Below, piece after piece: positions 7,388-22,474 of a stretch of DNA of 64,000 nt. The first letter of the stretch is position 1, and each line of letters begins with the position of its first letter. This DNA comes from Chiloscyllium plagiosum (lineage: Eukaryota): contig NC_057754.1 in NCBI RefSeq assembly GCF_004010195.1, forward strand, positions 7,826,725 to 7,890,724, written 5' to 3'. Position numbers and translations under genes: made by a program. Under the pieces are notes generated by a model. That model was not told the DNA's origin. It worked only from the letters and a program-made list of their open reading frames with translations, and did no database searches.

Positions 7388-7935
7388 TAGAGTACTGTTA
7401 TCAATTCTTGTCTCTCTGTTTTGGAAAGATGCTGTTAAACCTGAAAGAGTGCCAAAAAGATTTCCAAGGGTGTTGTCAGGGTTGGATGGGTTGAGCTACG
7501 GGGAGAGGCTGAATAGGCTGGGGCTATTTTCCCTGGAGCGTCCGAGGCTGAGAAGTGACCTTACGGAAGTTCGTAAAATCATGAACGGCACAGATAGGTT
7601 GAATGGCCAAGTTCTTTTTCACAGTGTGGGGGAGCCCAAAACTAGAGGGGCATGGGTTTAAGGTGAGAGGGGTAAGATTTAAAAGAGACCTAAGGGGTAA
7701 CTTTTTCACATAGGGTGGTGTGTGTATGGAATGAGCTGCCAGAGGAAGTTGGGGGGGCTGGTACAATTACAATATTTAAAAGGCATCTGGATGGGTATAT
7801 GAATAGGAAGAGTATAGAGAGATATGGCCCAAGTGCTGGCAAATAGGAATGGATTACTTTAGGATATCTGTTTGGGGGGTGTGGACAAGTTGGACCGAAA
7901 GGTTTATTTCCCTTGCTGTACAAACTCTATAACAT
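7388..7935 (+). mobile_element. CR1/HER1 3' fragment
   Basis: GLSYGERLNRLGLFSLE C-terminal ORF2 motif and typical 3' UTR. Confidence 0.88.
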
Positions 7936-8046
7936 CTGTGAGATCCTGCGGACGAGGAGTGCTGGGTTGATTCCAGACTCTTTCAGTGGGAACCAGATGC
8001 TTAAATGTGGATTCCCTCTGCAATATCCTCGAAGAATATGATCCAA

Positions 8047-8393
8047 GCTGTTGTGGTTCTGTTTGCCGAGCTGGAAGTTTTTGTTGCAAACGTTTCGTCC
8101 CCTGGCTAGGCGACATCATCAGTGTTTGGGAGCCTCCTGCGAAGCGCTTCTTTGATGTTTCCTCCGGTTTTTATTGTGGTCTGTCCCTGCTGCTTCCGGT
8201 TGTCAGTTTCAGCCGTCCGCTGTAGTGGTTGGTATATTGGAGGAAACATCAAAGAAGCGCTTTGCAGGAGGCTCCCAAGCACTGATGATGTCGCCTAGCC
8301 AGTGGACGTAACGTTTGCAACACAAACTTTCAGATTGGCGAACTGAACCACAACAACGAGCACCCGAGCTACAAATCTTCGCACAAACTTTGA
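8047..8393. mobile_element. Penelope-like element, inverted pair of terminal repeats (family P1), each with a hammerhead motif
   Basis: 8047-8239 is the reverse complement of the 3' end of the PLE at 10967-11411; 8240-8393 is the same end in forward orientation. Confidence 0.85.
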
Positions 8394-8640
8394 ATATTTT
8401 CCCCTCGTCCGTTCCACTTCTCAACTTATTTTCCCGACTGCTTGCAAGTGTTCCCTTAGAAACTGCAGCTTTAGGAAACGTATTATTGGGATAAAGTCAT
8501 TACTCAATGGGATGGGATGCACCGTCAATCCCTAATTACTTCATTCACTGTTTCCCCTGAACTACTTTGCTAGCTACACCATCACAAAAACTCCACGCTT
8601 TGTCGAACACAATTTGCTTTCGTTAAGTTGATTGCCTCTG

Positions 8641-8933
8641 TGTAGTGATTGGGACCAGGTGGATCTTACTGACTATGAAATCCTTGATTGCAGTTATTTA
8701 CCTGGGTGAATCAGGGAGCCCTGGCTGACCAGTATAAACACAGGGGTAAAAAGAAATAAACACAAAAAATAAGCAGATTAAAAATATATATATATAGAAA
8801 TAAATAAGGAATGCAGAGAGTCTCCTGATTTCAAGGACTAACTGCAAGCTGGCTGGCCACAGCCAGTGTACTGTGCACATGTAAATAAAGTGTGATTTGG
8901 TGATGGGATACTGGCCCGTGTGGAGTGATTTCA
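8641..8933 (+). mobile_element. Probable solo LTR (Gypsy-like)
   Basis: TG..CA termini (tgtagtgatt...gagtgatttca), TATA-like gtataaa at ~8732 and AATAAA at ~8884. No clean TSD. Confidence 0.5.
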
Positions 8934-9476
8934 ACCTGCATGAAGATATTATGATTTACCATATGCTCATGGTCCGTTGAGGAGCTGGGCTTGCAATATT
9001 AGTAACATTAAATTCCATCTGGTTCATTAAGGCAATGCTTATCTTTTCTGATCGACATGCCCACAGCAATGGGTTAACTCATATCCCTCTGAAATGCTCC
9101 TAACAAGCACCCAGTTCAGGGACAAATAAGGGTGGACAACAAATGCTCCCTTTGTCAGCGACTCTTGTGGTGGAAACAAAGAGCAGCAGGAAAATGATTG
9201 CAAATGGAAATGAAAGAAAACTTCATCAAAAACTTGAATTCAAACAGAAGGTGGTGGAGGCAGATGTAATAGCAACATTTAAGAGGCATCTTAACAGATA
9301 CATGATAGGTAGGGAGTAGAGGGATATGGACAGTATGGAGGCAAATGCTTTTTAGGTCAGAAAGGCATTATCTGTTGGCATAGCCTTGGTGGATCAAAGG
9401 ACCTGTTCCTGTGCTGTATTATATGTTGTTAAATAATAAACAAACACAAGTGAAAGCTCTTTCTATTTTCTGACAG

Positions 9477-9592
9477 GTGGAGAAATGGAAGAAGTCGAAA
9501 TCAAAAACATCAAGTTTGTTTCCTCGCCGTATGCAATCGATTTATCAAAGACCAGCGGTTACTTCATCCCAAAAGTTCCATTCACTGTGTTG
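9477..9592 (+). CDS. C4: Isolated complement C4-like exon (thioester-protein family, beta-chain macroglobulin region); functional status unknown
   Basis: tttctattttctgacag| acceptor and TTG|gtatgt donor; 116 nt, phase 1 to 0. Encodes (G)GEMEEVEIKNIKFVSSPYAIDLSKTSGYFIPKVPFTVL versus recalled human C4 [39 protein letters not shown] (about 20/39 identical), closer than to the recalled C3 or C5 equivalents. Confidence 0.85.
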
Positions 9593-9837
9593 GTATGTAC
9601 AGCCACAGTGGCTCTGTACATAGTGTCTGATATAGTACAGACCCACATGGGTATATCCAAAACAAGGACAGAAATTACTGGGAAAACTCAGCAAAATCTG
9701 GCAGCATGTGGAGAGAAGGCAAAGTTAATGTCTTGGGTCTAGTGACCCATCTGCAGAGCTGCTAGCAACTAGGACAAGGTGGTATATATGCTGAAGGCAA
9801 CGTGGGGTGGGTGGGGGAAGGAGTGAGGGGACGCAGC

Positions 9838-9839
<2 letters not shown>

Positions 9840-9880
<41 letters not shown>
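9840..9880. repeat. (GA)n microsatellite within a decayed PLE end (9660-9940)
   Basis: Direct reading. Confidence 0.95.
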
Positions 9881-9882
<2 letters not shown>

Positions 9883-9944
9883 AACAGTTAGGAAAAGAGA
9901 TGGATGCTAGTACCTGTGGGAAACAAGAAAATACCAAGGAAAGG

Positions 9945-10265
9945 AGATGGCTTAGTGGTATAATCACTGGACTGTTATTCTAGAGACCCAGGTAATGTTG
10001 GAGGGATGTGATTTTGAATCCCACAGATGGTAGAATTTGAATGCAATAAAAATCTGGAATTGGGAGTCTGATAATGAACAATCGTTGGGGAGCAGAGGAG
10101 GGGGACAAACCTTTCTGTTTCAATAATGCCTTTTACAAAGGGAAATCCTACGGAAACCCTACCTGGTCTCGCCTGCTTGTAACTCCAGACCCACAGCAAT
10201 GTGGCTAACTGGGTGGATAACAAATGCTATCCTAGCCAGTAGTGCCCAGATTCCATGAATTTAGA
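9945..10265 (+). mobile_element. tRNA-derived SINE, second family (copies also ~15635-15965 on - and ~38957-39170 on +)
   Basis: gatggcttagtggtataatcactggactg head and shared gactccagacccacagcaatgtgg core. Its 3' end is shared with the LINE tails at 30440 and 50080. Confidence 0.65.
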
Positions 10266-10966
10266 GAAAACAAGCTGGTAACACGTTTTAAAATACTTGT
10301 GGTCCCTACTATCAGTAATTCACTCTCACCAGCCTGTTATAATCCATCCCTTTGTCTGCTCAACAGCTGTTGTCTCTCTGGGTTCCATCTCCACCCAATT
10401 CCCCCACCCTCCTTCCTCTGTTATTTCCGCACCCAGCCTTCTTCAATCTGACTGAAGGTGTGACGCTTGCCAGTTAAGTGGCTGAGGGCTCCCTCCTGTT
10501 CTGCAGTCTGGGAGAAAGCTTTGTGTGTGAGGGCGGTGGGGACAAGATTTGAACAAGGAACAAATCCCAGCTTAATTAGTGTTAAATAATGCTTATCCAG
10601 AAATGCTCTTGTGTTCAGCAATGTGCGTTCTTGTCCACTGCACATACCCCATTACCTCAGGTACCATTATGCTGACGTTTCCACCAGAAATGTCATTGTC
10701 ATCAATCTGTCAGCAATTTGGTCAAAATCCCAGCTGCCCATATGGCCTTGCTTCAATCCTTCCACAGTAATAATTACAGCAGGAAATCTGGATCCATCGT
10801 GTTATCAGGGTACATTTGTACATCTGCTTTAACAAAAAGTTAAATGATGAAGTATGATACTTTACAACACCATTGTAGGGAAGGCAACACTTGCAGGTTT
10901 CATTAAAGGGATTGATGGTAGTCCAGCAATGATGGGCAAAGTACTTAGCTGGTGATCATTTAATGA

Positions 10967-11411
10967 GGTTGAAACCCAGTGAGATAAATCAATAAACGAT
11001 ATAAATGGAACACGAAATGACACGACCAGCTATCCTTAGTAGCCACACACGCAGACAACAAGCAACATGAATTCGACTGGGACAACACTACTATCATAGG
11101 GCAAGCCAGACAGAGGACAGCCAGGGAATTCCTAGAGGCATGGCATTCATCCACAAACTCCATCAACAAACACATCGACCTGGACCCAATATACCAACCA
11201 CTACAGCAGACGGCTGAAACTGACAACCGGAAGCGGCAGGGACAGACCACTATAAACACCGGAGGAAACATCAAAGAAGCGCTTCGCAGGAGGCTCCCAA
11301 GCACTGATGATGTCGCCAAGTCGGGGGACGAAACGTTTGCAACAAAAACTTCCAGCTCGGCGAACAGAACCACAACAACGAGCACCCGAGCTACAAATCT
11401 TCTCACAAACT
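10967..11411 (+). mobile_element. Penelope-like retroelement 3' end (GIY-YIG C-terminus + terminal repeat with hammerhead), family P1
   Basis: + frame HDQLSLVATHADNKQHEFDWDNTTIIGQARQRTAREFLEAWHSSTNSINKH fits the PLE GIY-YIG C-terminal half (H..H.F.W..R..E..IN). TSD tttaatga at 10959-10966 and 11412-11419. Confidence 0.88.
11301..11340 (+). ncRNA. Minimal type I hammerhead ribozyme motif (PLE family P1)
   Basis: gca-CUGAUGA-u-gucgcc-loop-ggggac-GAAA-C-GUU-ugc: complete core, 3-bp stem I (gca/ugc), palindromic ACGU stem III. Confidence 0.7.
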
Positions 11412-11663
11412 TTTAATGATCCAAGCTCTTTCAGGGTTAGTGACCACAGAGGCAAATTGTGTAAGAACAGAGCAGGAGCTTCCCAAGTATCTGTGCCTCC
11501 TCGTCTTGAGGGGCAGAAGGTTTTATGAACATGGACTAAGGTGCCAAGGTCAGTGCAGTGATCCCACTACTGGAGGTAATGCAGGTCCTTGCTGAAAACT
11601 CTTTTGGTAGGCTCTACCAAGGTATCACACTCCACACATTCACTCACAGTCACCCACCCACAA

Positions 11664-17532: not shown

Positions 17533-17668
17533 ATGTTTCAGCTACGAGTTGTAAAAGGGGGCTTCAGCTTCCTGGGGGTCAGGCGGATGGCTGTGCTGAA
17601 TGCTGCTCATCGAAGCACTCAACACAAGGATTACAAGCCCATCAAGAAGGTGATGGTAGCTAACAGAG
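17533..17668 (+). CDS. PC: Pyruvate carboxylase, coding exon 1 (mitochondrial leader + start of biotin carboxylase domain)
   Basis: tacag|ATG acceptor directly at the start codon. Encodes MFQLRVVKGGFSFLGVRRMAVLNAAHRSTQHKDYKPIKKVMVANR(G); YKPIKKVMVANRG matches vertebrate PC. Donor G|gtaag; 136 nt, phase 1. Confidence 0.97.
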
Positions 17669-20593: not shown

Positions 20594-21587
20594 CTGATGT
20601 AGTGAAAATTCATAAGGGAAGCCCTTTGAGGCTGCCATTCAGTGGGCCCAACCACATTTGTCTGCTTACTGAGCGAGAGTTTCACCCATTGTCTTTGTGT
20701 CATTGTTCTCTTCGTGTTCCTTTACCGACTCAAATCACGTACTGTGCTTGTCCCCCCCCGGTCTCTGGCCACCTCATTGAAACACTTCCCACATCTGCTC
20801 TCTGATTTCCAAATGCCCACCCATCCCCTCGCCATCTGTTTTGCTCCATCGCTGGCCTGCTCAGTGTATCATCAATTATCGGAATTTAATAAAGCAATTT
20901 GCCGTGGCGCAGCTGTGTTCAGTTCTGGGCACTGTACCTTCGGAAGGATCTATTAGCCTTGGAGGAGATGCAGTGCCGTTTCACCAGAATGATAAATGTT
21001 GAGAAAATGCATCACGTTGTGCAACTAAGTTGCATTGACTCATACACAGGAGATTTTAAATGTTTGTGATATTTAAGGATTTGGCAGGGTAGATAGATTG
21101 GGAATATTTCCTTATTGATTGAGAAGGGCAGGATAGACGTCCGCAGAAAGTTTGAATGAGCTGAAAGGATGTGATTGACCAGGTTCTATTCAGTGGGAGT
21201 GTTTGGAGGGGGACTGGCGGGAGGGGTGGTGGGATTGGTGCCTTGAACTAGAGAACACACCTTAAAAATCACAGCTCCTCCTTTCAAGAGAGAGCTGCGC
21301 AGGTACATGTTCTTCCAGAGAGTGCTGAGTCTTTGGAATGCTGTTTCCCGAAAGTGATAGAGACGGGGTCCCAGAGGTAGATAGAACCTTGTCTGAGGGA
21401 GGGAGTCAGTGGTAATCAGGCAGTAAAGTGGAATCAAGGTCCCGGACAGATCAGCCGGGTTTTTATTGAATGCTCAAATGGGCTATCCTGCTCCTCGTGA
21501 GTGTGTTGACCAAGTGTGGTAGAGCAGGTCCGAGGGGCTGAATGGCCTCCACCTGTGCCTAATCCTCCTGTATGACTTCTCCTTCAG

Positions 21588-21772
21588 GTGAGATAGCGAC
21601 CAGAGTGTTTCGAGCCTGCACTGAGCTCGGGATCCGCACTGTGGCGGTTTACTCGGAACAGGACACCGGGCAGATGCACAGGCAGAAGGCCGATGAAGCT
21701 TACCTGATCGGGAAGGGCCTTCCCCCTGTCCAGGCTTACCTGCACATTCCTGACATCATCAAAGTAGCCAAG
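21588..21772 (+). CDS. PC: Pyruvate carboxylase, coding exon 2 (GC donor)
   Basis: ttcag| acceptor. Encodes (G)[61 protein letters not shown]. Ends AAG|gcaagt; 185 nt, in frame with the next exon. Confidence 0.97.
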
Positions 21773-22474
21773 GCAAGTGATTTCCTCCTCCTGTTGGGAC
21801 TGGTTTCTGGATACGTGGAGTTGTAACCTGCGCCCTAATGGCTCGGTTTCTCTGCAGTACAAACCAGGTCCACCGTGGCCACATCCTCCAGCATTGCAGA
21901 GGCTCTGTCCGTCTTGTCCGTGCATTAGTTTCCTCTCCTTCCTTGATGGGCTCGTTGGCCTGGGGCAGGTCCCATAGTCCCCGGTGCATAAGGACGGGCA
22001 TGTGATGATGCTTGGGTGGTGGGTGGAAAAGCAGGCCAGGCCTGATGATTGTGACCCGGAACAACAAGGGGCCAGTTCTGGGCCTTGTCGTCCTTTCCTT
22101 TTCTGACGTGGTCCAGCAACATGGCGAGGGGCGCGCCCAGCGAAATGGTGGGTGGGTGTTGAGGCCGCTTGAGGAGTGGGGTATGGCAAGGGAGGGGCGC
22201 AAGTGGGAGATGGGAGGTCTTTGAAGGGTGTGGTGGAGGCAGGAAATTGGGTGAGGGGAAGATGGGGGAAGTGGGATGGAGGGGTGCGGTGCGGTGTGTC
22301 AGGGATGGAAAAAGAAGTCAGCTGAGGCAGGCAGGCTGGGTTTGAGGGGCCCAGTGGCTGCTGGCTGTTTGGGTTTCGGGACTTTGATGCAAAGCGTCGA
22401 TTTTGTTTCTTTTAAATTGAGTGTTTCTTGCTTCAATCTAAAATGTAATGCTTCCTGTGTCTGGTTGCAATCAG

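What the first reader, a model, noticed from the sequence alone, without database searches (positions are those of the whole stretch)
9477..9592. Orphan but intact complement C4-like exon 8 kb upstream of the pyruvate carboxylase start exon
Seen: an uninterrupted 116-nt frame with good AG/GT sites encoding GGEMEEVEIKNIKFVSSPYAIDLSKTSGYFIPKVPFTVL; I found no other C3/C4/C5-like exon anywhere in the window. Known: this is an internal beta-chain exon of a ~40-exon gene that is normally in the MHC class III region. Inference: the remaining C4 exons cannot fit before PC. It is therefore a duplicated or transduced exon lodged in the PC 5' region, a relic of a broken C4 paralog, or a scaffold misjoin.
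Basis: partly seen in the sequence, partly recalled or inferred. Interest (0 to 1): 0.8.

Follow-up and report, generated by a model that had tools for sequence, protein, structure and literature searches.

The report
C4 exon pasted into Penelope gaps
The exon is a true piece of the shark's complement C4 gene, but its presence beside pyruvate carboxylase is likely an assembly error: the same C4 stretch sits, without a single difference, inside up to 50 jumping-gene sites of this assembly, while five other sharks show it at one-locus depth.

Summary
The exon is real and is C4: the ninth block of a complete C4 gene on contig C37, which still has it. It is not an orphan. It lies in a 2.5-kb C4 intron-exon-intron piece (8540-11010) inside a Penelope-like retroelement (PLE) insertion with a 12-bp target duplication. 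Sixteen dispersed loci carry the exon and 50 carry some of the C4 intron, all ending at the PLE stump that sits in the donor intron. The C4 part has 0 substitutions and 0 indels among 16 copies; the PLE ends differ by 1-2%. Contigs of five other animals show C4 at one-locus depth, unbroken across the assembly's joints, yet carry the PLE-flank edges at both loci tested. So the PLE sites are old and shared and the C4 filling is not. Best reading (0.85): gap filling pasted the second C4 haplotype into unresolved PLE copies. Rival (about 0.1): real PLE-driven copying private to the sequenced lineage. The source animal's reads were not available. This scan noted similar host-in-PLE patches elsewhere in this genome.

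The parts
8038..8049 (+). Left target-site duplication of the PLE insertion (12 bp)
   Evidence: identical to 11416-11427
8050..8240 (-). Inverted 5' arm of the PLE (3' end of the element, reversed)
   Evidence: 95% complementary to 11186-11377; flank-arm edge present in contigs of runs X5 and X7 (table 8)
8239..8395 (+). Direct piece of the PLE terminal repeat with the 40-bp tail; 92% to the right arm, possibly borrowed from another locus
8396..8539 (+). Piece of an unrelated multi-copy repeat; the same tail-to-repeat joint occurs on small contig C39511
   Evidence: 40 of 40 scored matches at 91-100%; C39511 matches across the joint at 95%
8540..11010 (+). C4 intron-exon-intron piece, equal to a second allele of C37:18655.2-18657.7 kb; the likely false fill
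9477..9592 (+). C4 beta-chain exon (ninth tblastn block, residues about 365-404 of P0006), phase 1 to phase 0
   Evidence: spliced to the next C4 exon in run X9
11011..11415 (+). 3' end of the PLE: end of the ORF, terminal repeat and tail
   Evidence: relatives carry RT (PF00078), PF26215 and GIY-YIG (PF01541); flank edge present in X1, X2, X5
11304..11333 (+). Minimal hammerhead-like motif of the PLE repeat (core boxes seen; activity untested)
   Evidence: no Rfam match; folding z -0.46
11416..11427 (+). Right target-site duplication
17533..17668 (+). First coding exon of pyruvate carboxylase (context only; an acceptor AG directly precedes the ATG, so an upstream non-coding exon is likely)
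   Evidence: translation and splice sites; name recalled; a later PC exon confirmed

Best explanation
The C4 exon here is likely a false gap fill: a real Penelope-like element sits at this site, its interior likely could not be assembled, and the gap was likely closed by extending from the element's 3' end into the C4 intron that carries a stump of the same element. Steps: (1) shown: the C4 gene on C37 has a 367-bp PLE stump 1.4 kb downstream of this exon; (2) shown: 50 loci of the assembly read 'C4 intron of variable length + PLE 3' end', joined bluntly to whatever lies on the left; (3) shown: the C4 part is identical at all exon-bearing loci and equals a second allele, while each PLE end has its own substitutions; (4) shown for two loci: other animals have the PLE edges but C4 at one-locus depth; (5) inferred: an iterative gap filler kept locus-specific sequence for the first 350-400 bases from the unique flank, then jumped through the shared stump into the left-over C4 haplotype and stopped at about the estimated gap length. 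Which program did it, and why this stump was chosen so often, is not known.
For: 0 substitutions and 0 indels (microsatellites included) in 36,582 copy-bases of C4 DNA across 16 copies, against about 242 expected at the rate of the PLE part (41 substitutions in 5,241 copy-bases; CpG sites 11 of 427, others 30 of 4,814); arms of the same locus differ at 54 of 2,293 sites. The copies differ from the assembled donor at 33 aligned sites plus indels, and 9 of those 33 donor letters appear in other animals, so these are ordinary alleles. Many copies end in the 40-bp tail that the donor stump lacks. Window locus: 3' PLE-flank edge in 3 of 4 runs, 5' edge in 2 of 4; C3 locus: 3' edge in 2 of 3 DNA runs, 5' edge in 3 of 3. 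C4 contigs have depth 19.6-21.4 in X1 against 12.1-22.2 for flank contigs, 11.5-24.6 against 8.3-18.6 in X5; single contigs of X2 (10181-11007) and X5 (10181-11039) run unbroken through a stretch where the assembly has 24 different 5' joints. At the C3 locus the C4 contigs of X1, X5 and X8 stop matching exactly at the assembly's C4-arm joint (L034:6727) and go on with other sequence. Left parts look chimeric: window tail-to-repeat joint shared with C39511; loci C1 and C15a share one inversion joint. Joints are blunt, 0-3 shared bases at 10 of 10 tested. C4 fill lengths are two-humped (14 of 31 at 0.7-1.2 kb, 5 at 1.2-2.2 kb, 12 above 2.2 kb) and the upper hump starts near the full element length of about 2.5-2.6 kb; weak, bins chosen afterwards. 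[quoted passage not shown]
Against: No run of the source animal was laid, so absence of the joints in it is not shown. The shared edges rest on 23-28 letters on the PLE side, under the tool's 31-letter rule for bridging, and contigs drop rare variants. Only 2 of 50 loci were tested. A direct test for double assembly failed: in 5 of 5 loci the left direct piece and the right arm do not share private substitutions. Flanks of two other PLE stumps are single-copy (0 of 2 multiplied), so C4 is special and this is unexplained. With a shark mutation rate of 7e-10 per base per generation (PMC10587355, abstract seen), zero differences only bound the age below about 1e5 generations, so identity alone does not prove an artefact. 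I found no paper describing this exact artefact (0 hits).
Confidence: 0.85

Rival explanations
1. Real, lineage-private rewriting of resident elements: unspliced C4 pre-mRNA ending in the PLE stump was reverse-transcribed by the PLE enzyme and used to replace the interior of dozens of existing PLE copies, pairing through the shared 3' repeat.
For: PLEs can move intron-containing host DNA in trans (PMC3846280, passages seen). A PLE protein nicks its own terminal repeat in vitro and starts copying at two internal sites that define the tail (PMC11167929, parts 1-2 of 4 seen); the copies end at those two positions. The intron and its stump are covered in an RNA-like run (X9, depth about 10; exon 2,799). 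It would explain why C4, a highly expressed gene, is the donor while two control stump flanks are single-copy. One copy (L104) switches to C4 16 bases inside the PLE body.
Against: Needs 50 or more germline events, none shared with five other animals. Nick-and-insert would duplicate the repeat and leave donor-type ends; the right ends are single, locus-specific and carry a tail that the donor lacks. Left parts are chimeric in ways that this does not explain.
Confidence: 0.09
2. Real, very recent burst of new insertions (5' transduction of C4 pre-mRNA by the PLE) into empty sites, each with its own target duplication.
For: Ladder of 5' truncations from 31 to 3,346 bases, common 3' end, inverted 5' arm at 31 of 45 loci examined and an 11-17-bp target duplication at 28 of those 31; this is the architecture of the rotifer cases (PMC3846280).
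Against: Both loci tested are occupied by the PLE in other animals rather than empty; arms of one locus differ by 2.35% while the C4 part differs by 0.
Confidence: 0.04
3. Old segmental duplication, or relic of a broken C4 paralog beside pyruvate carboxylase.
For: At least three C4-like genes exist on C37, so paralogs are common in this genome.
Against: Paralog exons are 75-76% identical in DNA; this one is 100% identical to the intact gene; the piece is bounded by PLE sequence and repeated at 16 loci; one-locus depth in five animals.
Confidence: 0.01

Closest known systems
Penelope-mediated mobilisation of intron-containing host genes in the rotifer Adineta vaga (Arkhipova et al. 2013, PMC3846280; passages seen)
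   Same: Host DNA with its introns framed by direct and inverted terminal repeats and a target duplication, no element body inside.
   Different: There the empty site was found on the allelic scaffold; here other animals have the element at the site but not the host filling, there are 50 identical copies, and the repeat ends are older than the cargo.
Canonical insertion structure of endonuclease-bearing Penelope-like elements (Craig et al. 2021, PMC8557442, passages seen; Frangieh et al. 2024, PMC11167929, parts 1-2 of 4 seen)
   Same: 5' truncation, inverted 5' arm, partial tandem, one-sided 30-40-bp tail, hammerhead-like motif; such structures are said to trouble short-read assemblies.
   Different: The frame is an ordinary member of this kind; only the C4 interior is odd.
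[quoted passage not shown]
   Same: Gaps caused by repeats, closed greedily with wrong sequence.
   Different: The passages seen do not describe one allele of one gene pasted into dozens of gaps; three searches for this pattern gave 0 papers.

Membership tests
Complement C4 exon | Aligns to the C4 beta chain, better than to C3, C5 or alpha-2-macroglobulin | tested here: met
   P0006 best PDB hits are human C4-A/B (1,126 bits) before C3 (851) and C5 (596); the exon lies in the beta-chain alignment; thioester exon of the donor hits C4 first
Complement C4 exon | Belongs to a complete, ordered C4 gene and is spliced into C4 mRNA | tested here: met
   39 ordered tblastn blocks of at least 60% identity at C37:18636914-18761931; X9 contig covers exactly the exon and continues with the next C4 exon. 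This holds for the C37 copy, not for the window copy.
Endonuclease-bearing Penelope-like element (the frame) | ORF with reverse transcriptase followed by GIY-YIG endonuclease | tested here: met
   relatives of the stump carry PF00078, PF26215 and, in 5 of 43, PF01541; long copies of the ORF exist in this genome; Pfam on the stump pieces alone found nothing
Endonuclease-bearing Penelope-like element (the frame) | Inverted 5' arm, one-sided 30-40-bp tail, target duplication | tested here: met
Endonuclease-bearing Penelope-like element (the frame) | Hammerhead ribozyme in the terminal repeat | tested here: inconclusive
   core boxes present; no Rfam hit; fold no better than shuffles; cleavage not testable
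PLE-mediated transduction of host DNA | Unspliced host DNA between terminal repeats with a target duplication | tested here: met
   true of the assembled sequence at 28 of 31 arm-bearing loci
PLE-mediated transduction of host DNA | Empty site in other chromosomes, or the filled site supported by independent reads | tested here: not met
   2 of 2 loci occupied by the PLE in other animals; no listed contig crosses a C4 5' joint; C4 at one-locus depth
PLE-mediated transduction of host DNA | Cargo and repeat ends of one age, 3' end taken from the donor RNA | tested here: not met
   0 differences in cargo against 0.5-1.2% in the ends; tail absent from donor
Gap-fill mis-assembly | Identical sequence at many repeat-bounded sites, single-copy in independent data | tested here: met
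Gap-fill mis-assembly | Joints unsupported by the reads of the assembled individual | not testable with these tools
   no listed run held more than 0.67 of the window's words; both read lays used

The most novel reading that the evidence does not exclude
In the lineage that was sequenced, the Penelope enzyme used unspliced C4 pre-mRNA, tagged by a 367-base element stump in an intron, as a template to overwrite the interior of 50 or more resident Penelope copies, scattering an intact C4 exon with splice sites to 16 sites, one of them upstream of pyruvate carboxylase: RNA-templated conversion of existing elements by a host transcript.
Probability: 0.09. Interest if true: 0.85.

Novelty: not a real feature. 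Interest (0 to 1): 0.2.

Why it matters
If the best reading holds, this assembly carries at least 50 false copies of C4 intron DNA, 16 with a clean exon, dressed in genuine retroelement ends and target duplications, so that they pass the usual sequence tests for retro-transduction. Other 'host exon captured by Penelope' calls in this genome need the same read check, and the recipe used here (cargo identity against arm divergence, allele state, edges and depth in unrelated animals) is a cheap filter. If the rival holds, it would be a new route of exon shuffling in vertebrates, directly testable by PCR.

Tried and rejected
Exon peptide alone against PDB and Pfam: nothing. Rfam on 7900-11600: nothing. 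DNA-transposon (terminal inverted repeat) capture: considered from the 192-bp inverted arms, rejected because the arms are PLE 3' ends of variable length and 14 of 45 loci have none. Double assembly of the same PLE piece from both sides: not found, 5 of 5 loci. Multiplied flanks at other PLE stumps: 0 of 2. No target duplication at the 14 loci without an arm is not discriminating: 0 of 12 control stumps had one either, and about half of those controls were arms of filled loci that my filter failed to remove. Exon 8 and the intron beyond -1812 are single-copy; no left-over haplotype contig found there. Fit of fill length to element length: 2 of 5 loci with a direct left piece give about 2.55 kb, the others 2.2, 2.8 and 3.0 kb; inconclusive. 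Literature: 'complement C4 + Penelope + shark' 0 papers; 'Penelope + transduction + pLTR' 1 unrelated paper. Earlier scan notes by sequence and by nearby place: none. No supplements were read.

Full report
Observation. The 116-nt exon at 9477-9592 is as described, with AG and GT edges. It is too short for PDB or Pfam. A thioester-domain search of the genome placed exons 47 kb downstream of one copy, on C37; one of them hits human C4 first and retrieves shark proteins that NCBI names complement C4-like, P0006 at 100%. P0006 maps to C37:18636914-18761931 in 39 ordered blocks (rows under 60% identity dropped); our exon is the ninth, and it is the only C4 match in the window plus 40 kb upstream. 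P0006 is closest to human C4 and the exon lies in the beta chain. Two further C4-like genes on C37 carry 75-76% identical versions. Pyruvate carboxylase follows on the same strand.

What surrounds it. The exon with flanks has 17 matches at 100% in the assembly: the C37 gene and 16 dispersed loci. All 16 are collinear with the C4 introns from a variable 5' point (139 to 1,812 bases before the exon) to a common 3' point. That 3' part (11011-11415) is the end of a Penelope-like element: relatives carry RT and GIY-YIG domains, long copies exist in the genome with a unit of about 2.5-2.6 kb, and a 367-bp stump of it lies in the donor intron itself. Shorter versions are more numerous: 39 non-donor matches among 40 scored for 10300-11005, 40 of 40 scored at 100% for 10760-11005 from 59 candidates; 50 distinct loci in all (tally). 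Of 45 loci examined, 31 have an inverted 5' arm and 28 of these an 11-17-bp target duplication. In the window the duplication is at 8038-8049 and 11416-11427. On sequence alone this looks like the intron-retaining transduction described in rotifers (PMC3846280, passages seen).

Why it is probably not real. First, cargo and frame disagree. The C4 part shows 0 substitutions and 0 indels in 36,582 copy-bases of 16 copies; the PLE part shows 41 mostly private substitutions in 5,241, four-fold enriched at CpG, and the two arms of a locus differ by 2.35%. Many copies end in a tail that the donor stump lacks. Second, the cargo is an allele: it differs from the assembled donor at 33 aligned sites plus indels, and 9 of those donor letters segregate in other animals. 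Third, independent data. Contigs of five DNA samples from two studies (X1, X2, X5, X7, X8) were laid on the window and on the C3 copy. C4 contigs have the depth of flank contigs, not 16-50 times more; single contigs cross a stretch in which the assembly has 24 different joints; at the C3 copy three contigs leave the stretch exactly at the C4-arm joint. The tool warns that summed depth is no copy number, so I used per-contig depth and contig continuity. Yet the same animals carry the PLE-flank edges: window 3' edge 3 of 4 runs, 5' edge 2 of 4; C3 copy 3' edge 2 of 3 DNA runs, 5' edge 3 of 3. These contigs reach 23-28 letters into the element, below the tool's 31-letter bridging rule, as expected where a contig stops at a repeat. 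The donor's intron-stump joint is real (X5, X9). Fourth, the left parts look stitched: the window's tail runs into a repeat joint also found on C39511, two loci share one inversion joint, and joints are blunt.

Mechanism proposed. Shown: resident PLEs at shared sites; a PLE stump in a C4 intron; identical second-allele C4 DNA inside 50 of the sites in this assembly only. Inferred: the interiors were gaps; filling from the right flank kept locus-specific letters for about 350-400 bases (private substitutions stop at 11047), crossed into the C4 allele through the stump and was cut at about the gap estimate. PMC8557442 and PMC9575681 (passages seen) support the general weakness, not this exact pattern, for which three searches found nothing.

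Results against. No reads of the assembled animal were tested. Two control stump flanks are not multiplied, so why C4 was picked is open. The double-assembly test failed at 5 of 5 loci. The lack of target duplications at arm-less loci has no valid control. At 7e-10 mutations per base per generation (PMC10587355, abstract seen) zero differences allow up to about 1e5 generations, so identity alone is weak; the weight lies on the other animals. A PLE protein can nick its own repeat and starts copying at the two positions where these copies end (PMC11167929, parts 1-2 of 4 seen), and the C4 intron with its stump is covered in an RNA-like run while the exon is joined to the next C4 exon at high depth (X9), so a real RNA-templated replacement private to one lineage cannot be excluded (0.09).

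Earlier scan notes (unchecked AI notes) report other host pieces inside PLEs in this genome, one with 200-300 copies that public reads show only once. They fit a genome-wide fill problem; I did not test them.

Verdict. Observation confirmed, interpretation partly supported, feature most likely not real at this place. Interest 0.2.

Noticed in passing
G000:C37 7.48-7.56 Mb, 8.76 Mb, 17.68-17.78 Mb, 18.64-18.76 Mb: At least three C4-like genes with ordered exons, and a further thioester-domain exon at 8.76 Mb, lie on one contig.
   Followed up: partly
G000:C37:18657.6-18658.0 kb (donor intron): The two C4 alleles differ at the PLE stump itself: the assembled allele has a 30-bp tandem duplication and one mismatch in the stump's target duplication, the other allele does not; X1 has no listed contig across 10855-11010, so the stump may be polymorphic.
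   Followed up: partly
window 8396-8539; G000:C8 and many small contigs: A multi-copy repeat (91-97% identity, 124 candidates) concentrated on C8 and unplaced contigs; nature unknown.
   Followed up: no
L034:3507 to 6820: An inversion joint of a PLE with 18 extra letters appears at one-locus depth in X1, X5 and X8; it may be the true interior of the C3 locus or belong to another locus.
   Followed up: no
L092, L103, L098, L107; C1 and C15a copies: Pairs of unrelated loci share the same composite left structure (arm end and direct piece), which suggests borrowed joints or PLE sub-lineages.
   Followed up: partly
P0026, P0030: Annotated host proteins of a related shark (a MAP3K7 isoform, a 5'-nucleotidase-domain isoform) contain 81-88% identical pieces of this PLE's ORF end: exonised element or annotation error.
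   Followed up: no
window 21587-22411: GC-rich stretch with long open frames on the minus strand inside a pyruvate carboxylase intron; possibly a promoter region of a nested or neighbouring gene.
   Followed up: no
L066, L072, L073, L087, L109: Arm-less PLE stumps without C4 also lack a detectable target duplication, so some of them may be mis-joined as well.
   Followed up: partly
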